A stretch of 64,000 bases of DNA from an uncultured delta proteobacterium. GTDB taxonomy: Bacteria; Desulfobacterota; Desulfobacteria; Desulfobacterales; Desulfosalsimonadaceae. A model generated the notes under the pieces. It had not been told where the DNA came from and ran no database searches. It saw only the letters and a list, made by a program, of their open reading frames with translations. A program made the translations under genes and the position numbers. Below are positions 49,683-63,942 of the stretch, piece by piece (position 1 is the stretch's first letter; each line of letters opens with the position of its first letter). The stretch covers positions 576,001 to 640,000 of the forward strand of contig CAWGYD010000001.1 of assembly GCA_963826785.1 (NCBI GenBank), given 5' to 3'.

Positions 49683-50847
49683 AGAAGGAGCGCAACGTAC
49701 ATATAAACGGCAGCAGGCCTGCCCCGGGGATCCTGATCACCGGCGGCGGCACCGGCGGACACCTGTTTCCGGGAATCGCCGTCGCCCGCGCTTTTTTGCG
49801 CAGATTTCCGGACTGCCGCATCCGGTTTATCAGTAGCGGCCGGCCCATAGAAGAGAGCGTTCTGGCCGGGGCCGGATTTTCGACCAGCGTCATCGGTGCG
49901 GCGGGCATCAAAGGAAAATCCTGGGGGCAGAAGTTAAAAGCTGTGTTCAAACTGCCCGGTGGGGCTGATCCAGTCGGCCACGGTGCTGATAAAGTTTGGG
50001 CCGGATGTGGTGATCGGCCTGGGCGGATACAGCGCCGGCCCGGTGGTGGTGGCCGCCTGGCTGCTTCGCATCCCGCGCGTGATCCAGGAGCAGAACGTGA
50101 TTCCCGGCATCACCAACCGGCTCCTGGCCCGCTTTGCGGACCTGATTTTCACCTCATTTCCGGACACGGCCATTGCCGCACCGATTGAAAAAATCTGTTT
50201 TACCGGAAATCCGGTGCGGGATGAAATCATCAAAGCCTTTGATGCCAGTGCTTCCGAAAAGAACAGGCGGTTTACGGTGCTCATCCTGGGAGGAAGCCAG
50301 GGCGCCCGGGGGCTCAACCGTCTGGTGATCGCGGCCCTGGATCATTTAAAAGAAACGGACCGGTTCAGGTTTATCCACCAGACCGGCCCGGCGGACCTGC
50401 AGGATGCGGCAATCGCCTATGCGGAAAAAGACATTGCAAATACCACCGCCCCCTTTTTTACGGACATGGCTGCCCTCTACGCCCGGGCCGATCTGGTGAT
50501 CTGCCGGGCCGGGGCCACCACCGTGGCGGAGATTATCGCGGCCGGCAAGCCGGCTGTTTTCATCCCTTTTCCCCACGCCACGGACAACCACCAGGTGTAC
50601 AACGCCCAGGGCACTGGTCGACCGGGGGGCGGCCGAAATGTTTCTGGAAAGCGAGATGACCGGATCGGCCCTGGCGGAAAAGATCGTTTATTATGCGGAT
50701 CATCCCGGCGCACTCCGGGAAAGACGAGAAAATATCAGACCTCTCCGGGTGGAAGATGCGGCCGGGCAGATCGTTTCGCGCATCAGCCGGCTCATCGGCC
50801 TGGACACCGGGGACAAAAGCGGTTCACACGCGTCAAACGGAATATAG
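49679..50847 (+). CDS. murG: MurG glycosyltransferase (frameshifts near 49955 and 50610)
   Basis: GGGTGGHLFPG, GGYSAGP, EQNVIPG, GNPVR, GGSQGA, RAGATTVAE, HQVYNA across three frames. Confidence 0.92.
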
Positions 50848-50856
50848 CATAAGCGA

Positions 50857-52231
50857 ATGTATCGAAAACAATATCATATCTTTTTTGTCGGCATCGGCGG
50901 CATCGGCATGAGCGGCATCGCCGAACTGCTGATCAACCTGGGCTACCGGGTGTCCGGTTCGGATAAGACGCTTTCGGATGTGACCGACCGCCTGGAAAAG
51001 CTCGGGGGAACCGTCTACCAGGGACATGCGGCAGACCACATCCATGACGTGGACGTGGTGGTGGCCTCTTCGGCCATCCGGCCGGACAACCCGGAAATCA
51101 GGGCTGCCGTGGAAGCATCGGTCCCGGTGATCCCGCGGGCCGAAATGCTGGCCGAACTGATGCGGCTCAAATACAGCATCGCCGTGGCCGGCGCCCACGG
51201 CAAAACCTCCACCACCTCCATGGTGGCATCCGTTCTGGCCTCCGGCGGGCTCGATCCCACCGTGGTGATCGGGGGAAAGCTCAAAGCCATCAACACCAAT
51301 GCGGTGATGGGTCAAGGGGATTACATCGTGGCCGAGGCCGATGAGAGCGACGGGTCATTTCTGAAATATTCTCCGATCCATTGCCGTGGTGACCAACATC
51401 GACCTGGAGCATGTGGATTTTTACAGGGACCTGGAAAAAATCAAATCCGTGTTCCTCGATTTCATCGACCGGATTCCTTTTTACGGCCTGGCGGTCCTCT
51501 GTCTGGACAACGAGCCGGTCCAGGATATCATCCCGCGGATCCGGAAGCGTTTTGTCACCTATGGGCTGAGCGCCCAGGCCGATTACCAGGCCCGCAATGT
51601 GGAATTTGAGGGCATGAAATCCCGTTTCGAGGTTTTCCAGAATGAAAAAAGGCTGGGGGAAGTCAACCTGAACCTGCCGGGCATGCACAATGTCTACAAT
51701 TCCCTGGCCAGCATCGCAGTCGGAGTCGAACTCGACATCGCCTTTGAAAAGATCCGCCAGGCACTGGAAACCCTGGAAGGGGTGCAGCGGCGACTGGAAA
51801 TCAAGGGGGATGCCGGCGGCGTGAAGGTGATCGATGATTACGGACACCATCCCACCGAGATCAAGACCACCCTGGATGCCGTCCGCAAATGCTGGCCGGG
51901 CAGGCGCGTGGTGGTGGTGTTTCAGCCCCATCGCTACACCCGCACCCGGGCGCTGTTCAATGAATTCACCCGGGCCTTCTACCAGAGCGACATTCTGCGC
52001 CTCCTGCCGATCTATTCGGCCGGAGAGGACGAAATCGAGGGGGTCAGTCACGAGGCGCTCTATGATGGCATCAAGGAGCACGGGCACAAGGATGTGGGGT
52101 TTTGCAGCGGCCGGGAGGAAATGGCCGTCGAAATCAAGGCGCTGGTCAGGCCGGATGATATCGTCCTGACCCTTGGCGCCGGAGACGTGTGGAAGGTGGG
52201 GGAAGTCTTGATCAGGGAATTGGGACTCTAA
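50857..52231 (+). CDS. murC: UDP-MurNAc--L-Ala ligase (frameshift near 51378)
   Basis: [28 protein letters not shown]; then [19 protein letters not shown]. Confidence 0.94.
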
Positions 52232-56991: not shown

Positions 56992-57624
56992 ATGTCTTCT
57001 AAGAAAGAACTGAGCATCGCGTATATTGTCGGGATCGTGTGCATTATCGTGGGAGCGCTGTCCTACAGCGTGCTCTCGGCCAAACCGCCGGAAGAGCCCC
57101 GCCGGATCATGCTGACGGCCACCGGCGGCAATGTCCTGTTTGACCACCGGAATCACAGCGAGGCCTATGGACTGGAGTGCACCGGCTGCCATCATCCGAT
57201 CCTGGCGGGAGCGGGCGAAACAGAGGCCTGCGGCCAGTGCCACACCAAAGAGAGCGAATATGTGCCGGCGCTGGGCGAAAAGGGAAAGTTCAATCATGAC
57301 GCCCATAGCATGGATTACGGGTTGAGCTGCACCGATTGCCACCACAACTATACGGAAGGCGATCCGGGCGGACCGGAACTGTGCACGGTATGCCACCAGG
57401 CCGGAATGGGGGATGACGTCATTCCGGGCCGGAAAGAGGCCTTTCACCAGCAGTGCATCGGCTGCCACGAAGAGTTGGGTATATCGCCCGGAAAAACGGA
57501 CTGCAATGCTTGTCATGTCCCCCGGAAGCGGACCGATGCATTTCACGACCAGTGCGCGGGATGCCATGAAGAGATGGGTGCCGGGCCGGCCAAGGCGGAT
57601 TGCAAAACCTGTCACGGTTATTAA
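56992..57624 (+). CDS. membrane-anchored octaheme cytochrome c3-family protein (Rnf-associated)
   Basis: N-terminal TM; 8 CxxCH motifs (CTGCH, CGQCH, CTDCH, CTVCH, CIGCH, CNACH, CAGCH, CKTCH). Confidence 0.92.
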   Translation: MSSKKELSIAYIVGIVCIIVGALSYSVLSAKPPEEPRRIMLTATGGNVLFDHRNHSEAYGLECTGCHHPILAGAGETEACGQCHTKESEYVPALGEKGKFNHDAHSMDYGLSCTDCHHNYTEGDPGGPELCTVCHQAGMGDDVIPGRKEAFHQQCIGCHEELGISPGKTDCNACHVPRKRTDAFHDQCAGCHEEMGAGPAKADCKTCHGY

Positions 57625-57689
57625 TTACTGCCCTTTCGGGGCAGGGCATTTTGCCGTTATTCATTCAAGCGTTTTAAAAAGGTTGATCC

Positions 57690-58979
57690 ATGATTAAGCG
57701 ATCATTTTTCGGATTTATCAAACCGAAGCTCAGGTATGAAACCATCGACGACATCCAGTCGGAACCGGTGGCCGTATCCCCCTCTTCGCGCATCATTTTG
57801 TTTTTCGATGAGAAGCTCGACTCCCAGTCGGGTGCGCTGCTGAAGGTCGGGGACCTGATCAGCCGGGGGCAGAAGCTGAAATTGTCCGCCGGATCCGATC
57901 AATATGCCATCGCCAGCCGGTCGGGACGGATCGTTGCCATCACGCCCATGATCGGGCTGATGGGCAAACCCATGACGTCGGTCGCCATCGACATTGATGA
58001 TGAGGCAAATCAACGCATGGACGAGGGGTTTAAAGAAATCTCGACTGCTCCCACACTGGAGAACGCCCGGGCGTATCTGAGCGGGCTGGCGGGCAAACCG
58101 GATCTGAGCGTTTTTGACGACCCAGAACATCCGGTCAAGTCCATCATCGTCGTGGGTGCGGACAACGATCTGCTGAGCATGACCCAACAGCATTTTGTCA
58201 AATCCGCCGTCGTCTGCATCAAGACCGGTGTGGAGATCCTGCGCAAACTGACCGGTATCCACAATGTGGTCCTGGTGGTGCCCCATCATCTGGCGCAGGT
58301 GGCGGGGTCTGCCGGCACGGTGGTCAAAACAGTGGATTCGGAATACCCTGCGGCCCACCCCCAGTTGATTCTGCGGCACATTCTGGAAGAGACATCCGGC
58401 AGCGGCACGCCGCAAGACGCACCGCAAACGGCGATGTTTACGGCTGAATCGGTCTGCGCCATCGGGGCCGCATTCAACACCGGCCAGTTGTCCTTGGACA
58501 AGCTGGTCACCTATGTTGCCAAAGACGGCGCAAAGCATCTGGTCACCGTGCCCATCGGAACCCCCTTGAAGGATATTCTCAATGCCTTCGGACACCGTCT
58601 GGATGAGGGCGATCGGGTGATTTTCGGCGGCCCCATGACCGGCGTCTCGGTATATTCCGAGGACCATCCGGTGCTGGCCGATACCAACATGATCATGGTC
58701 CAGAAAGAATCCGATATCATAGAGCGCGAAGACATCTATTGCATCAATTGCGGTGAGTGCGTCCGGATATGTCCGGCAAACATCGGCGTCAATCTGCTGA
58801 TCCGGTATCTGGAGGCGGGACTGTATGAAACAGCCGAGGAGCAGGCTGATCTGCATTCCTGCATCGAGTGCGGCCTCTGCAGTTATGTGTGTGAATCCCG
58901 GATCCCGATCTTTCAGCACATCATGCTGGCCAAGCACACGCTGGAGAAAATGAAAGCGGCGGAGGAAAACAATGCCTGA
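57690..58979 (+). CDS. rnfC: RnfC-like subunit, divergent
   Basis: VPIGTP, GGPMTG, CINCGECVRICP, CIECGLCSYVCES; operon position. Confidence 0.85.
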   Translation: MIKRSFFGFIKPKLRYETIDDIQSEPVAVSPSSRIILFFDEKLDSQSGALLKVGDLISRGQKLKLSAGSDQYAIASRSGRIVAITPMIGLMGKPMTSVAIDIDDEANQRMDEGFKEISTAPTLENARAYLSGLAGKPDLSVFDDPEHPVKSIIVVGADNDLLSMTQQHFVKSAVVCIKTGVEILRKLTGIHNVVLVVPHHLAQVAGSAGTVVKTVDSEYPAAHPQLILRHILEETSGSGTPQDAPQTAMFTAESVCAIGAAFNTGQLSLDKLVTYVAKDGAKHLVTVPIGTPLKDILNAFGHRLDEGDRVIFGGPMTGVSVYSEDHPVLADTNMIMVQKESDIIEREDIYCINCGECVRICPANIGVNLLIRYLEAGLYETAEEQADLHSCIECGLCSYVCESRIPIFQHIMLAKHTLEKMKAAEENNA

Positions 58980-59940
58980 TACTGTCAAACTGACCGTCTC
59001 GTATGCCCCGTTCTGGCACAACGGGAGCAAAATTTCGACCAAAAGCTACAACATTCTGCTTGCCGGCCTGCTTCCTGTGGCTTTCGGGATCTGGCAGTAC
59101 GGTATTGCCGCCCTTGGGGTCGTGACGCTTGCCATCGGTTCGGCTATTTTCTGGGAACTGCTGATGAATTTCATCATGCGCCGTCCGGTTTCCATCGGAG
59201 ACGGGAATGCGGCGGTGATCGGCATGGTTCTGGCCATGCTGATGCCGGCCACCACCCCCTGGTGGATCGTGGTTTTCGGAACACTGGTGGCGGTGGTCAT
59301 CGGAAAGCAGATTTTCGGCGGCATCGGCGGCAATCCGTTTAATCCGACCATCGTTGCCTTTGCCATCCTCATGCTCTCCTGGCCGCTCTATTTTGATTTC
59401 AATGCGGCCCTGGTCAATTATGAATTTTCCTTCAACCCGGTCTACCCGCTGGTGCTGGCCAAGTCCTTCGGTTCCGGGGCGGTGGCTTCCTTTAGCTTGA
59501 AAGACCTGCTGCTGGGCCATCAGGTGGGCGGCATCGGGTCCACCTTCTCCCTGGGCGTGATCGTCGCCGGGATTTACCTGATGCTCAGAGGATTCATCCG
59601 GTGGGAAATTTCGATTTCCTTCCTGATCGGGGTGATGGTGACCGCGTTTTTCTTTAACCGGGCCAACCCGGTTGCCTATGCCAGCCCCGGCTTTCATCTG
59701 CTGACCGGCTACACCCTGGTGGGGGCCTTCTTCCTGGCCACCGAGGATTCATCATCGCCGGTCAACCTGATACCGATGCTGATCTACGGAATGCTGGGCG
59801 GTGTCCTGACGGTCCTCATCCGGAACATCGGCGCCCACACGGAAGGGGTGCTCTACGCCATCCTGGTGATCAATCTGGCCAATCCCCTGATCGACAAAAT
59901 CAGACCCAAAGCAACGGGAAAGGTAATCAGTCATGCGTGA
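58972..59940 (+). CDS. rnfD: RnfD subunit
   Basis: GKQIFGGIGGNPFNP, GAFFLATE..SSP, EGVLYAIL. Confidence 0.9.
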   Translation: MPDTVKLTVSYAPFWHNGSKISTKSYNILLAGLLPVAFGIWQYGIAALGVVTLAIGSAIFWELLMNFIMRRPVSIGDGNAAVIGMVLAMLMPATTPWWIVVFGTLVAVVIGKQIFGGIGGNPFNPTIVAFAILMLSWPLYFDFNAALVNYEFSFNPVYPLVLAKSFGSGAVASFSLKDLLLGHQVGGIGSTFSLGVIVAGIYLMLRGFIRWEISISFLIGVMVTAFFFNRANPVAYASPGFHLLTGYTLVGAFFLATEDSSSPVNLIPMLIYGMLGGVLTVLIRNIGAHTEGVLYAILVINLANPLIDKIRPKATGKVISHA

Positions 59941-60526
59941 AATGATAAAAATGGTCATCGTCCTGACACTGCTGAGCAGTATTTCCGGCGGTCTGCTGGC
60001 GGCGGTCCGCAGCAGCACCAAAGAGCGGATCGAAGGTCAGGTGCTGGAATTCGTGCAGGGGCCGGCCATCCGGAAAATCATGGAGGGTGCCTCGAATGAT
60101 CCCATCAAAGACCGGTTTACGTTAAAGTCCGGGGATACCGAAAAGAACTTCTTTGTCGGTGTGTTCGACGGCAAGCCCAGCGTGGTGGCTTTTGAAACCT
60201 CTGCCACCGGATTCGGAGGCGAAGTGGGGATCATGGTGGGGGTGGACGTGAAAACGGACAAGATCGTCGGCATCGACGCCACCACCCTCAGTGAAAGCCC
60301 CGGCTACGGCGCCAACCTGGTGACCGACAAGGAATTCAAGAACCAGTTTAAAGGGATGCCGATTGCATCGGCGCCCAAGGTGAAAAAGGACGGCGGCGAT
60401 ATCAACGCCCTGTCCGGCGCCACCATTACCTCCCGGGCAACGGCTGCGGCGGTGACCAAAGCCGGTGAAATCTATCAGCAGTTCAAGCCCGAAATTGAAA
60501 AGCAATTAAATACGTTTTCCGGATAA
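59933..60526 (+). CDS. rnfG: RnfG subunit
   Basis: GFGG, ESPGYG, covalent-FMN motif SGATITS. Confidence 0.92.
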   Translation: MREMIKMVIVLTLLSSISGGLLAAVRSSTKERIEGQVLEFVQGPAIRKIMEGASNDPIKDRFTLKSGDTEKNFFVGVFDGKPSVVAFETSATGFGGEVGIMVGVDVKTDKIVGIDATTLSESPGYGANLVTDKEFKNQFKGMPIASAPKVKKDGGDINALSGATITSRATAAAVTKAGEIYQQFKPEIEKQLNTFSG

Positions 60527-60540
60527 GGGAGATCAGTCAT

Positions 60541-61155
60541 ATGGCTAAAACAATCACGCAGGAATTTGTAAAGGGCCTTTGGGAAGAGATCCCCCCGTTT
60601 CGACTGGTCCTGGGGCTCTGTCCCACGCTGGCGGTTACCAAAACCGTGGAAAACGGCATCGGGATGGGCGTGGCCACGACATTCGTACTGGTATGTTCCA
60701 ACATCCTGGTGGCCATGCTGCGCAATGTCATACCCGCCAAGATCCGGATCGCCTGTTTCATTATCATCATCGCCACCTTCGTGACGGTGGTCGAACTGGT
60801 CATGCAGGCATTTGCCTATCCCCTGTATCTCAAGCTGGGCATCTTCATCCCCCTGATCGTGGTCAACTGTATCGTGCTGGGGCGTGCCGAAGCCTTCGCC
60901 TTTAAAAACAAGATCATGCCGTCCATCGCCGATGGTTTGGGAATCGGCCTGGGATTTACGCTGTCGCTGGCCACCCTCGGGTCGGTTCGGGAATTGTTCG
61001 GCTACGGGACCCTGACGTTCTGGGAAAAACCGGCTTTTAACCTGGCCCATATCATCCCGTCCTTTCAGCCGTTTTCTTTCATGGTGGAAGCGCCGGGGGC
61101 GTTTGTCTGCCTGGGGCTGCTTCTGTGCTTCATGAACATGGCCGGCAAAAAGTAA
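60541..61155 (+). CDS. rnfE: RnfE subunit
   Basis: LGLCPTLAVT, FIPLIVVNCIVLGRAEAFA. Confidence 0.94.
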   Translation: MAKTITQEFVKGLWEEIPPFRLVLGLCPTLAVTKTVENGIGMGVATTFVLVCSNILVAMLRNVIPAKIRIACFIIIIATFVTVVELVMQAFAYPLYLKLGIFIPLIVVNCIVLGRAEAFAFKNKIMPSIADGLGIGLGFTLSLATLGSVRELFGYGTLTFWEKPAFNLAHIIPSFQPFSFMVEAPGAFVCLGLLLCFMNMAGKK

Positions 61156-61201
61156 ACCGGAATTTTTTTCATCGAAAAACGATGAAACACGAGGAGAGGT
61201 T

Positions 61202-61777
61202 ATGAGCGATCTGTTCGTACTGGTTATCAGTTGCATCTTCATCAATAATATCCTGCTGGCCCAGTATCTGGGCAACTGCCCGTTTCTCGGCACATCCAAG
61301 AAAATGGAGACCGCGGTGGGCATGGCCATGGCCGTGGTTTTCGTTCTGGTTCTGGCCGGCGTGATCACCTGGATCGTCAACATTTATTTTCTCAAAAGGC
61401 TGGGGATCGAATTTCTCCAGACCATCTCCTTTATCCTGGTGATCGCATCCCTGGTCCAGTTCGTGGAGATGTTTCTGAAAAAAAGCATCCCCGCGCTGTA
61501 TGCGGGACTGGGCATTTTTCTGCCCCTGATCACCACCAACTGCGCGGTCATGGGCGTCTGTCTGATCAACATCAAGGAAGGATACACCTTTACCCAGGCC
61601 CTGATTGCCTCGTTTGCCTACGCCGTGGGTTTCGGTTTCGCCCTGATCCTGTTCACCGGGATCCGGGAGCGGATCATCCTGGCCCGGGTGCCCAAGCCGC
61701 TGCAGGACACGTCCATCGGACTGGTGACCGCCGGCCTGATTTCACTGGCGTTTTTCGCCTTTCAGGGAATGGTCTGA
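61202..61777 (+). CDS. rnfA: RnfA subunit
   Basis: YLGNCPFLG, LGIFLPLITTNCAVMG. Confidence 0.94.
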   Translation: MSDLFVLVISCIFINNILLAQYLGNCPFLGTSKKMETAVGMAMAVVFVLVLAGVITWIVNIYFLKRLGIEFLQTISFILVIASLVQFVEMFLKKSIPALYAGLGIFLPLITTNCAVMGVCLINIKEGYTFTQALIASFAYAVGFGFALILFTGIRERIILARVPKPLQDTSIGLVTAGLISLAFFAFQGMV

Positions 61778-61878
61778 TCCGGGAAATCTTTGCCTTTTAT
61801 CTCTTGAATTTCCAGGGACAGCCACTATTTTCTGAGGAAATCTTCGGTTTAAAAACACATTAACGTAAAGAGGATATT

Positions 61879-63942
61879 GTGATAGAAGCCATTCTGTTTA
61901 CCTTGGGGCTGGGCGCGACTTGCGGGATTATCCTGAGTTTTGCGTCCAAAATCTTTTATGTCTATGAAGATCCCCGGATTGCACAGGTGGAAAATTTTCT
62001 GGCCGGCGCCAACTGCGGCGGCTGCGGGTTCGCAGGATGTTCGGCGGCCGCCGATTCCATTGTCAATGGCAATGCCCCGCCAAACGCCTGCATTCTGATC
62101 GGGCCTGAAAATGTGTCTGCCATCGCCGGCATCATGGGAGCCGAGGCGGGTACCGCCGAACCCTTGAAATCTGTAAATACGTGTGCAGGCGGAAACCGGG
62201 CTGCGGACCGGTTCCATTACCTGGGGGTGGAATCGTGCAAAGCGCTTTCCGCCTTGTACGGCGGAAAACGGGAGTGCAACATCGGGTGCCTCGGTTTCGG
62301 CGACTGCGTGAAAGCCTGCGGCTTTGACGCCATTGCCATCGGTGCGGACGGCTTCCCTGTGGTCGATCGGGAAAAATGTGTGGGATGCGGTGCCTGCGAA
62401 AAGGCCTGCCCCAAGACGATCCTGGAAGTGCAGTCCATGTCCGCCCGTCTGCTCCATTTGAATGCGCAAAACGATGCGCTGGCGCCCTGCGCCCAGACCT
62501 GCCCGGCGGAAATCGATATTCCCCGGTACATCGACCATATCCGCAAGGGAGAATACGATGCGGCAGTGGATACCATCCGGGAGAGAAACCCCTTGCTGCT
62601 GGCCTGCGGCCGGGTGTGCCCCCATCCCTGTGAAAGCTTCTGCCGCCGCAGCATCGAGGATGAACCGGTTTCCATCAATCAGTTGAAGCGCTTTGTCGCC
62701 GATTACGAAATGAATTCGGGCAAGCGCATCCCCATTCCCTGCGCGCCGGACACCGGAAAACGGGTGGCTGTCATCGGCGGCGGCCCCGCTGGACTGAGTT
62801 GCGCCTACTTTCTGAGACGGGCCGGCCACCATCCCGAAATATTTGAAGCCATGCCCAAGCTGGGCGGCATGCTGCGCTATGGAATTCCCGAGTACCGGCT
62901 TCCCAAGAAAACCCTGGACTGGGAAATCCAGGGCATCCTGAACCTGGGGATCGATCATCATACCAATGTGCGCCTGGGCGTTGATTTTGATTTCAAGTCG
63001 CTGATCGCGGCCGGATTCGACGCGGTATTTTTCTCCATCGGCGCCTGGAACGATTACAAGCTGAATATCCCCGGCGAAGAAATGGAAGGCTGTTTTACCG
63101 GCATCAGCTTCCTGGCGAAAATGGGGAACAACGAGCCGGTACAGATCGGAAAACGGGTGGCCGTCATCGGGGGCGGCAACACCGCCATCGACTGCGCCCG
63201 GACCCTGGTGCGCAAAGGGTGTGAAAAGGTGTACCTGGTCTACCGGCGAACCCGCAAGGAAATGCCGGCCAATGAGGTGGAAATCGTCGCCGCGGATCAC
63301 GAAGGAATCGAATTCGTCTTTCTGGCCGCACCCAACCGGGTGATCGGAAACGCGGACAACCAGGTAACCGGCCTGGAATACCTGAAAATGGAACTGGGCG
63401 AACCGGACGCCAGCGGGCGCCGCCGGCCGGTGCCGGTGGAAGGTTCCGAAACCGTGCTCGATGTGGAAATGATCGTTACCGCCATCGGCCAGTCCCCGGA
63501 TATCGCGTTTAAAGGGCAGGGCGACCGCGTGGATGATCTCAAGATCACCCGATGGAATACCTTTGAGGTGGACCGGGCCACCTGCCAGACCAACGTTCCT
63601 TATATCTTTGCCGCCGGCGACTCCGCCACGGGCCCCGCCCTGGTGGTGGACGCCATCGGCGGGGGCAGGAAGGCCGCCCGCTCCATGGACCAGTTCCTGA
63701 GGGGAAAACCGGTGGCCGCTCAGCCCGACGCCATTTTGAACAAGCAGATTCCCGAAACCCTGTTCTCATCCGTTGCCGGAATCACCCCGAAGAAGCGGAC
63801 CGAGATGCCCGAGTTGCCGGTATCTGAGCGAATTCATACCTTTGAGGAAGTCGATCTGGTGATTACCGAAGCCGATGCCCGGCGAGAATCAGAAAGATGC
63901 CTGAACTGCTGCCGGCTCTGCTACAACCCGGACGCAGCCTGA
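61879..63942 (+). CDS. rnfB: RnfB fused to a GltD/NfnB-like FAD/NAD(P)H oxidoreductase
   Basis: LAGANCGGCGFAGC, CLGFGDCVKAC, CVGCGACEKACP; then CAQTCP, CGRVCPHPCE, GGGPAG, GGGNTAID, YRRT, AAGD, ERCLNC. Confidence 0.92.
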   Translation: MIEAILFTLGLGATCGIILSFASKIFYVYEDPRIAQVENFLAGANCGGCGFAGCSAAADSIVNGNAPPNACILIGPENVSAIAGIMGAEAGTAEPLKSVNTCAGGNRAADRFHYLGVESCKALSALYGGKRECNIGCLGFGDCVKACGFDAIAIGADGFPVVDREKCVGCGACEKACPKTILEVQSMSARLLHLNAQNDALAPCAQTCPAEIDIPRYIDHIRKGEYDAAVDTIRERNPLLLACGRVCPHPCESFCRRSIEDEPVSINQLKRFVADYEMNSGKRIPIPCAPDTGKRVAVIGGGPAGLSCAYFLRRAGHHPEIFEAMPKLGGMLRYGIPEYRLPKKTLDWEIQGILNLGIDHHTNVRLGVDFDFKSLIAAGFDAVFFSIGAWNDYKLNIPGEEMEGCFTGISFLAKMGNNEPVQIGKRVAVIGGGNTAIDCARTLVRKGCEKVYLVYRRTRKEMPANEVEIVAADHEGIEFVFLAAPNRVIGNADNQVTGLEYLKMELGEPDASGRRRPVPVEGSETVLDVEMIVTAIGQSPDIAFKGQGDRVDDLKITRWNTFEVDRATCQTNVPYIFAAGDSATGPALVVDAIGGGRKAARSMDQFLRGKPVAAQPDAILNKQIPETLFSSVAGITPKKRTEMPELPVSERIHTFEEVDLVITEADARRESERCLNCCRLCYNPDAA

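What the first reader, a model, noticed from the sequence alone, without database searches (positions are those of the whole stretch)
56992..63942. Rewired Rnf complex: NAD(P)H site apparently moved from RnfC to an RnfB-GltD/NfnB fusion, with a periplasmic octaheme partner
Seen: RnfC keeps both 4Fe-4S motifs but has no recognisable GxxGxGGAGFP or NxxECEP FMN/NADH motifs (the equivalent region reads LSGLAGKPDL...VGADND). RnfD lacks its flavinylation motif, RnfG keeps SGAT, RnfB carries a complete GltD/NfnB-type flavo-FeS module, and a multiheme c3 gene leads the operon. Known: canonical flow is Fd-RnfB-RnfAE-RnfG-RnfD-RnfC-NAD+, and cytochrome-associated Rnf operons occur in sulfate reducers. 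Inference: this complex may link cytoplasmic NADP(H) through B-AE-G to the periplasmic cytochrome pool, leaving C/D as a structural or altered arm. It would then not be an Fd:NAD+ pump.
Basis: partly seen in the sequence, partly recalled or inferred. Interest (0 to 1): 0.8.

Follow-up and report, generated by a model that had tools for sequence, protein, structure and literature searches.

The report
Cytochrome-linked Rnf2 pump, half disconnected
This seven-gene operon encodes the known but biochemically untested "Rnf2" membrane redox pump of sulfate reducers; it lacks the sequence sites for both flavins of the usual NAD+ branch and likely passes electrons from NADPH to periplasmic cytochromes instead, which would supply the unexplained electron donor of the Qrc complex.

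Summary
In detail: octaheme cytochrome, rnfCDGEA, and RnfB fused to an FAD/NADP(H) module; RnfC lacks its FMN/NADH motifs and RnfD has Tyr at the FMN threonine. The architecture is published (Tol2-type Rnf2, core genome of Desulfobacteraceae, untested), and this scan has reported it in at least nine other genomes. Best reading (0.55): an ion-coupled NADPH-RnfB-AE-RnfG-cytochrome wire feeding Qrc. Against it: RnfC's Fe-S ligands are invariant, and dhcA mutants of G20 had almost no phenotype.

The parts
56992..57624 (+). Class III (c3-type) octaheme cytochrome c, 210 aa, N-terminal hydrophobic helix (signal or anchor); predicted periplasmic
   Evidence: 8 CxxCH, 16 His, hydropathy peak at residues 7-27; PF02085; 4-10 heme relatives lead 51 of 60 clade loci
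57690..58979 (+). RnfC, 429 aa, RnfC fold, two [4Fe-4S] motifs kept, FMN/NADH motifs lost
   Evidence: AlphaFold model pLDDT 90.7, TM 0.76-0.79 to solved RnfC
58074..58175 (+). Degenerate FMN/NADH motif region of RnfC (residues 129-162; the Gly-rich loop is shortened by about 11 columns in the alignment, NxxECEP reads GADND)
58972..59940 (+). RnfD, 322 aa, without the flavinylated Thr; riboflavin ligands partly kept (Asn124, Glu258)
59443..59445 (+). Tyr158 codon at the position of the FMN-bearing Thr (A. woodii T156, V. cholerae NqrB T236)
59933..60526 (+). RnfG, 197 aa, SGAT flavinylation motif intact (Thr164 at 60422-60424); RnfG_DVU2794 family
   Evidence: NF045876 247.5 bits, cut-off 205; Thr164 nearly invariant in 41 clade sequences; apbE in genome
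60541..61155 (+). RnfE, 204 aa, Cys27/Cys110 and Na+-path residues Arg69, Leu105, Glu117 intact
   Evidence: invariant in 39 of 39 clade copies; residue roles from PMC11889175
61202..61777 (+). RnfA, 191 aa, Cys26/Cys114, Glu89, Thr111-Thr112-Asn113 intact
   Evidence: invariant in 40 of 40 clade copies
61879..63942 (+). Long RnfB (alpha type), 687 aa: membrane helix, mobile B8-type cluster domain and RnfB core (1-190) fused to an FAD/NADP(H) module
   Evidence: model pLDDT 85.4
62461..63939 (+). GltD-like module closest to the NADP(H) domain of NfnABC/StnC; Lys270 equals StnC K170; GGGNTA and YRR; C-terminal CxxC as in StnC
   Evidence: top sequence and fold matches 9BOV_A, 9N5U_A, 8OH5_C

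Best explanation
The operon encodes an Rnf2-type complex whose RnfC and RnfD lack the FMN sites of the NAD+ branch, and which likely works as an ion-coupled NADPH:cytochrome c oxidoreductase. Shown in sequence: NADP-type motifs on RnfB, intact RnfA/E cluster ligands and Na+ residues, intact RnfG flavinylation motif, loss of the RnfD Thr and RnfC motifs, a c3-type cytochrome at the head of the operon. Inferred: NADPH reduces FAD on RnfB; single electrons run through its [4Fe-4S] chain to the mobile B8 cluster, the AE [2Fe-2S] cluster (the pumping step, one cation out) and FMN of RnfG; with no FMN on RnfD, RnfG would hand them to the anchored cytochrome or a soluble c3; in genomes like this one, where no periplasmic hydrogenase was found, the cytochrome pool would drain mainly through QrcABCD to menaquinone and sulfate reduction. 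RnfC/RnfD would mainly hold the RnfB core in place. The wire should be reversible.
For: T156-equivalent motif (ATP) absent in 60 of 99 RnfD examined; in those 60 the FMN-side Glu (GE motif) is kept in 2, against 39 of 39 ATP-type; RnfC lacks both motifs in 59 of 59 intact partners; a small cytochrome lies in 51 of 60 loci, against 0 of 39. The same Thr-to-Tyr change removes FMN and disrupts electron flow in NqrB. AE ligands and Na+ residues invariant, and pumping is placed at the AE cluster. Alpha RnfB: GGGNTA and YRR in 26 of 26 (class defined on GGGNTA), StnC-type Lys; StnC's domain is a non-bifurcating NADPH site. Precedent: M. acetivorans Rnf does not use NAD(P), RnfG-to-cytochrome transfer is proposed, Na+ is pumped; the Methanosarcina RnfD profile spans about 9 positions where this RnfD has about 33 around the FMN loop (indirect). 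QrcD in 39 of 42 genomes with this Rnf against 1 of 22 with only ATP-type RnfD examined; 16 of the 42 have QrcD and no periplasmic-type NiFe small-subunit match. G000 has qrcABCD above cut-off and only an Mvh-type hydrogenase was found. Two papers state that Qrc's donor in these bacteria is unknown while Rnf2 and Qrc are abundant and constitutive. In G20 rnfD mutants grew poorly or after a lag where rnfA mutants did not grow.
Against: No biochemical data. The Thr-less RnfDs form one clade (SH-aLRT 99 in a quick tree of 81; FastTree 0.77 for 99), so the co-occurrences count as roughly one event, and Qrc tracks the same lineages. 8 of 31 QrcD genomes in the phylum draw had no RnfD match with this query, so Qrc does not need this Rnf. 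RnfC cysteines are invariant and an acid is kept at the riboflavin site in 59 of 60, unlike the cofactor-free NqrA, which suggests the C/D arm still does something. 9 of 60 loci show no cytochrome, and G20 dhcA mutants had a phenotype in only one experiment. Three RnfD keep Thr and eight Ser at the position. The 2025 survey models Rnf2 as an NADH-ferredoxin link. NADPH (about -370 mV) to c3 hemes near -300 mV gives only about 70 mV, too little to pump; the pool must be held near -200 mV (potentials recalled; arithmetic). G000 is 87.8% complete and periplasmic formate dehydrogenases were not searched.
Confidence: 0.55

Rival explanations
1. Same wire, mainly run inward: cytochromes reduced by periplasmic H2, formate or a syntrophic partner drive NADP+ (or, with short RnfB, ferredoxin) reduction at the cost of cation influx, supplying reductant for carbon fixation.
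For: 23 of 42 clade genomes match a periplasmic-type NiFe small subunit. G20 Rnf is needed on H2 and formate and is induced on H2; the authors saw no other route from formate to ferredoxin. The uphill step from c3 to NADP+ is small.
Against: 19 of 42 genomes, and G000, gave no such hydrogenase match; D. multivorans cannot use H2 or formate yet makes Rnf2 under all substrates tested. G20's own sequence was not obtained.
Confidence: 0.18
2. Swapped ends on an intact U-shaped path (close to the published model): NAD(P)H reacts at RnfB and ferredoxin or another low-potential carrier at the RnfC clusters, with a non-covalent flavin or direct G-to-riboflavin transfer in RnfD.
For: Published reading links NADH and ferredoxin pools through Rnf2 and expects another RnfC partner. 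RnfC Fe-S ligands invariant; riboflavin ligands largely kept.
Against: FMN-D bridges RnfG (under 5 A) and riboflavin (7.7 A), so removing it leaves a gap of roughly 20 A (inference); the Glu beside FMN-D is also lost. Short-RnfB members would have no nucleotide site at either end. Inference: the downhill Fd-to-NADP+ direction would run G to AE to B, the ion-importing direction.
Confidence: 0.12
3. The retained RnfC clusters and riboflavin form a separate or alternative branch to menaquinone, as riboflavin does to ubiquinone in Nqr, making the complex a three-way node.
For: Invariant RnfC cysteines, invariant GGxG and Pro of the riboflavin pocket, Asn124 in 44 of 60 and acid 258 in 59 of 60; weak NqrA-domain match of RnfC.
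Against: Asn124 is replaced in 16 of 60, including 8 of 17 loci of the decaheme-rich class; RnfD lacks the N-terminal extension of NqrB (322 aa against 415), which I recall lines the quinone site; no donor to the RnfC clusters is identified.
Confidence: 0.1

Closest known systems
Rnf2 / Desulfobacula toluolica Tol2-type Rnf of Desulfobacteraceae (Doerries 2016 PMC5109826, citing Woehlbrand 2016; Sci Adv 2025 PMC11887813)
   Same: About 700-aa RnfB with nucleotide-binding sites, RnfC without the NADH domain, cytochrome gene in the cluster (passages).
   Different: Nothing in architecture beyond heme number (8 here; the D. multivorans cytochrome is 15 kDa). The passages I read do not mention the RnfD Thr loss, NADP specificity, the second RnfB or a link to Qrc, and model an NADH-ferredoxin link.
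Desulfovibrio dhcA-rnfCDGEABF (G20; Price 2014 PMC4215793, Wang 2016 PMC4841214; survey PMC11434368)
   Same: Cytochrome-first order, RnfG_DVU2794 family; unnamed loci with this layout also lack the RnfC motifs and RnfD ATP motif; a 2024 survey notes an FAD oxidoreductase in place of rnfB in many.
   Different: Decaheme, often short RnfB, apbE in the operon; described in print as a ferredoxin:NADH enzyme and a proton pump.
Methanosarcina acetivorans Rnf with MmcA (Suharti 2014 PMC4023990)
   Same: No NAD(P) reaction at RnfC, RnfC keeps two clusters, RnfG proposed to reduce a multiheme cytochrome, Na+ pumped.
   Different: Ferredoxin input through short RnfB; methanophenazine acceptor; Methanosarcina sequences were not obtained here.
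Canonical Rnf (A. woodii 9ERI, C. tetanomorphum 7ZC6)
   Same: Six subunits, folds, AE cluster ligands, Na+ residues, RnfG FMN motif.
   Different: FMN-C/NAD+ site and FMN-D site lost; distal polyferredoxin part of RnfB replaced by an FAD/NADP module.
Na+-NQR
   Same: Nucleotide input on the B/F side, RnfC/NqrA homologue without FMN, pumping at the D/E (A/E) cluster.
   Different: NQR keeps FMN on NqrB and reduces ubiquinone; NqrA has lost its clusters; NqrF is unrelated to this module.
NADP(H) module of StnC (8OH5) and NfnABC (9BOV, 9N5U)
   Same: Best sequence and fold matches; Lys cluster ligand; C-terminal CxxC.
   Different: Here fused to a membrane-anchored RnfB instead of a NuoG domain; StnC C114 is Ile.

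Membership tests
Rnf2 (Tol2-type) | RnfB of about 700 aa with nucleotide-binding sites | tested here: met
   687 aa, Pyr_redox domains; definition
Rnf2 (Tol2-type) | [quoted passage not shown] | tested here: met
   no Complex1_51K hit; SLBB 19.9 bits, below its cut-off of 27
Rnf2 (Tol2-type) | Cytochrome c gene in the cluster | tested here: met
Rnf2 (Tol2-type) | Sequence identity to the Tol2 or D. multivorans proteins themselves | not tested
Canonical Fd:NAD+ Rnf | RnfC FMN/NADH motifs | tested here: not met
Canonical Fd:NAD+ Rnf | Flavinylated Thr in RnfD | tested here: not met
   Tyr158
Canonical Fd:NAD+ Rnf | RnfG flavinylation motif; AE [2Fe-2S] ligands; Na+-path residues | tested here: met
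Canonical Fd:NAD+ Rnf | Fd:NAD+ activity with ion transport | not testable with these tools
   needs assay
Bifurcating NfnB (NfnL) module | Glu ligand on the FAD-proximal cluster | tested here: not met
   Lys270 in 26 of 26 alpha copies, as StnC K170
Bifurcating NfnB (NfnL) module | Arg hydrogen-bonded to FAD N5 | tested here: inconclusive
   Arg340 is present, but it is also present in non-bifurcating StnC, where only geometry differs
Na+-NQR | NqrF and flavinylated NqrB | tested here: not met
   no NqrF in the operon; all nqr models below cut-off

The most novel reading that the evidence does not exclude
Rnf2 and the Desulfovibrio-type Rnf are one family of half-loop pumps that never touch NAD+ at RnfC: a cation-pumping B-AE-G wire ending on periplasmic cytochromes, with interchangeable cytoplasmic heads (ferredoxin-type short RnfB, NADPH-type alpha RnfB, and a beta RnfB fed by a NuoEF/HydBC-like NADH module). 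It would be the missing donor of Qrc in hydrogenase-less complete oxidizers, and in Desulfovibrio the direct cytochrome-to-ferredoxin route, meaning the Rnf of the model sulfate reducers has been assigned the wrong reaction.
Probability: 0.3. Interest if true: 0.85.

Novelty: new member of a known kind. Interest (0 to 1): 0.5.

Why it matters
Rnf2 is in the core genome of the main marine complete-oxidizing sulfate reducers and is among their abundant constitutive membrane complexes, yet its reaction is unmeasured, and the same papers leave open what feeds their Qrc complex. The sequence evidence gives one testable answer to both, and suggests that metabolic models which count these operons (and Desulfovibrio-type ones) as ferredoxin:NAD+ pumps are wrong. 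The locus itself is an ordinary member of a described type.

Tried and rejected
A published G20 primer scanned against named genomes hit 8 unrelated records and not the G20 operon, so G20 and D. vulgaris are linked to the clade only by gene layout and the RnfG_DVU2794 model. Woehlbrand 2016 and Pereira 2011 are not held; the supplementary text and fig. S18 of PMC11887813 on Rnf2 were not among the files held; the RnfD figure in the PMC4023990 supplement is a picture. Any of these may already state the RnfD loss or the cytochrome route. The careful RnfD tree did not finish; a quick tree was used. No sigma-70 promoter-like site was found upstream. Rejected: decay or sequencing error (same losses in 60 loci, intact frames, RnfD at least 54% identical in 38 of 40 relatives); a canonical rnf elsewhere in G000 supplying RnfC/D (none found by tblastn or TIGR01945; genome 87.8% complete); NfnB-type bifurcation at the fused FAD (StnC-type ligand); the fusion as the cause of C/D loss (short-RnfB members); eight hemes as a defining trait. 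Not run: homologue searches of the large protein collections, read mapping, search for periplasmic formate dehydrogenase.
Full report
Observation. The window holds seven co-oriented genes at 56992-63942: a c3-type cytochrome, rnfC, D, G, E, A and a long rnfB, with gaps of -8 to 101 bp. The cytochrome has 8 CxxCH, 16 His and one N-terminal hydrophobic helix. RnfC aligns over its length to three solved RnfC chains, but the GxVGxGGAxFP and NxxECEP motifs read LSGLAGK and VGADND; it scores 163.6 on TIGR01945 (cut-off 245.95) while a canonical control scores 501.8. Its predicted fold is still RnfC (pLDDT 90.7, TM 0.76-0.79); the model output did not let me inspect the pocket. RnfD Tyr158 aligns with the flavinylated Thr156 of A. 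woodii and with the Tyr of chain 9UD3, the engineered NqrB-T236Y that lacks FMN and has disrupted electron flow. RnfG keeps SGAT. It is the only rnfCDGEA found in G000, which is 87.8% complete. G000 has dsrA, apbE, qrcABCD above cut-off, and only an Mvh-type NiFe hydrogenase was found.

What is known. Doerries et al. 2016 (PMC5109826; passages) describe a 'D. toluolica Tol2-type' Rnf2 with a 700-aa nucleotide-binding RnfB, an RnfC lacking the NADH domain and a cytochrome gene, cite Woehlbrand 2016 (not held) for a different mode of action awaiting verification, and note that Qrc is abundant although the organism cannot use H2 or formate. A 2025 survey (PMC11887813; passages; supplementary text not held) puts Rnf2 in the core genome, models it as an NADH-ferredoxin link, and says Qrc must have a different electron donor. 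So the architecture is published. In searches and the passages read I did not find the RnfD loss or an Rnf2-to-Qrc link; the papers I could not open may contain them, and one earlier scan note says the cytochrome route is published. Nine earlier scan reports describe the same system in other genomes.

Comparative test. A close RnfD (54% identity or more) occurs in 38 of 40 relatives; 59 of 151 phylum genomes matched. I fetched 80 loci from those two searches (a chosen subset, not all hits) and 18 from a 41-genome class search, giving 99 RnfD with the window's. Sixty lack the ATP motif (position 158: Tyr 22, Asp 14, Ser 8, Thr 3, other 13) and 39 have it. Among the 60, the Glu next to FMN-D is kept in 2; RnfC lacks both motifs in 59 of 59 intact copies (one is split); a 4-10 heme cytochrome is present in 51; RnfB is long in 33, short in 16, and absent from the fetched stretch in 11 (the script counted 17 and 10; L051's hit is an unrelated opposite-strand gene). 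Among the 39, RnfC is canonical in 33, and none has a small cytochrome or long RnfB. The 60 form one clade (SH-aLRT 99, quick tree of 81; FastTree 0.77 for 99), so this is about one evolutionary event, not 60 independent ones. It does show that C/D loss is broader than the fusion. Loci with the decaheme-rnfCDGEAB-apbE layout reported for D. alaskensis G20 belong to the clade, and their RnfG pass the RnfG_DVU2794 model (3 of 3 tested, 278-288 bits; 2 of 2 canonical controls fail). G20's own sequence was not obtained, and the 2025 survey calls the Desulfovibrionaceae enzyme Rnf1, so this link is an inference.

What is kept. The four AE cluster cysteines and the Na+-path residues named by Kumar et al. 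2025 (PMC11889175; passages) are invariant in 39 of 39 RnfE and 40 of 40 RnfA of the first clade set. The RnfG Thr is nearly invariant. Also kept: all eight RnfC cysteines (59 of 59), RnfD Asn124 (44 of 60) and an acid at 258 (59 of 60). The last points argue that the C/D arm is not simply dead.

The fused module. Its best sequence and fold matches are the NADP(H) domains of NfnABC (9BOV, 9N5U) and StnC (8OH5), ahead of NfnB and GltD. It has the Lys cluster ligand of StnC (K170) where NfnB has Glu, and StnC's FAD is a non-bifurcating NADPH site (PMC10482914; passages). GGGNTA with YRR is the NADP-type signature (recalled). I therefore read it as a plain NADPH-to-one-electron converter.

A second RnfB. 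G000 has another long RnfB outside the window (C1:662765-664837, 35% identical), followed by an rseC-like gene (name recalled from its motif). Of 60 long RnfB examined, 26 carry GGGNTA/YRR (alpha), 32 belong to this beta class (29 outside an operon, 3 directly after rnfA) and 2 are neither by the rule used; both classes were seen in 15 of 44 genomes, and not every copy was fetched. Beta keeps the cluster cysteines, the Lys and the FAD motif but not the NADP motif. In 4 of 12 wider loci it follows a nuoE/nuoF-like pair, and G000 has a stand-alone pair whose NuoF-like protein is 72-78% identical to those (C3:231744-234099). This suggests an alternative, NADH-fed head for the same membrane core; it is untested, and no earlier scan note matched it.

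Mechanism. Inferred path: NADPH, FAD, RnfB clusters, B8, AE [2Fe-2S] with cation export, RnfG FMN, cytochrome. FMN-D normally bridges RnfG (under 5 A) and riboflavin (7.7 A) (PMC9588780; passages), so its loss should break the return path. M. acetivorans gives a precedent for RnfG-to-cytochrome exit with Na+ pumping (PMC4023990; passages and supplement text), and the Methanosarcina RnfD profile appears to lack most of the FMN loop (indirect). QrcD was found in 39 of 42 genomes with this Rnf and 1 of 22 with only ATP-type RnfD examined; 19 of the 42 gave no periplasmic-type NiFe small-subunit match, 16 of them with QrcD. Against a strict link: in the phylum draw 8 of 31 QrcD genomes had no RnfD match, three clade genomes lack QrcD, and kinship confounds the tally. 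Energetics with recalled potentials: NADPH to menaquinone spans about 300 mV per electron; pumping at the first step needs the cytochrome pool near -200 mV. G20 genetics cut both ways: rnfD mutants are milder than rnfA mutants, but dhcA is nearly dispensable (PMC4215793; passages), which requires that RnfG can also reach soluble c3.

Other papers seen: PMC4014512, PMC12174285, PMC9012536, PMC11434368, bioRxiv 2022.11.23.517749 and 2024.05.23.595608, passages only; none was read whole.

Verdict. Real, conserved, and a member of a described but untested type. Best reading 0.55 for an ion-coupled NADPH:cytochrome wire feeding Qrc; 0.18 for the same wire run inward; 0.12 for swapped ends on an intact path; 0.10 for a quinone branch. 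Interest 0.5: the locus is ordinary for its order, but the reading makes two open questions directly testable.

Noticed in passing
L134:4766-6838 (G000 C1:662765-664837, minus): Second long RnfB (beta class): cluster cysteines and FAD motif kept, NADP motif lost; followed by an rseC-like gene; widespread in the order, in-operon in L052, L053, L071.
   Followed up: partly
G000 C3:231744-234099; L175-L178: Stand-alone nuoE/nuoF-like (HydCB-like) pair with no catalytic partner beside it; close homologues lie directly upstream of beta rnfB in four other genomes.
   Followed up: partly
L206-L222: Decaheme-led rnfCDGEAB(-apbE) operons of another class also lack the RnfC motifs and RnfD ATP motif; 11 of 17 have short RnfB, 6 long.
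   Followed up: partly
L097, L098, L108: Degenerate RnfC with Thr-bearing RnfD; in L097 the gene after rnfA looks NqrF-like by eye: a possible Rnf/Nqr intermediate.
   Followed up: no
L081, L088, L089: Another type with degenerate RnfC but Thr-bearing RnfD and gene order G-E-A-B-(x)-C-D.
   Followed up: no
G000 C1:264587-309392: Dense cluster of about 20 ORFs with 3-15 CxxCH motifs each (some may be overlapping or off-frame), suggesting extracellular electron transfer capacity.
   Followed up: no
window 49959-52231: murG- and murC-like genes (names recalled from sequence) look broken by frameshifts: the first runs into unrelated sequence, the second is split over two overlapping ORFs; possibly assembly errors.
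   Followed up: no
L041, L062, L063: RnfC is split in L041 and RnfE is cut to about 108 aa in L062 and L063 (same genus), by frameshift or a real split.
   Followed up: no
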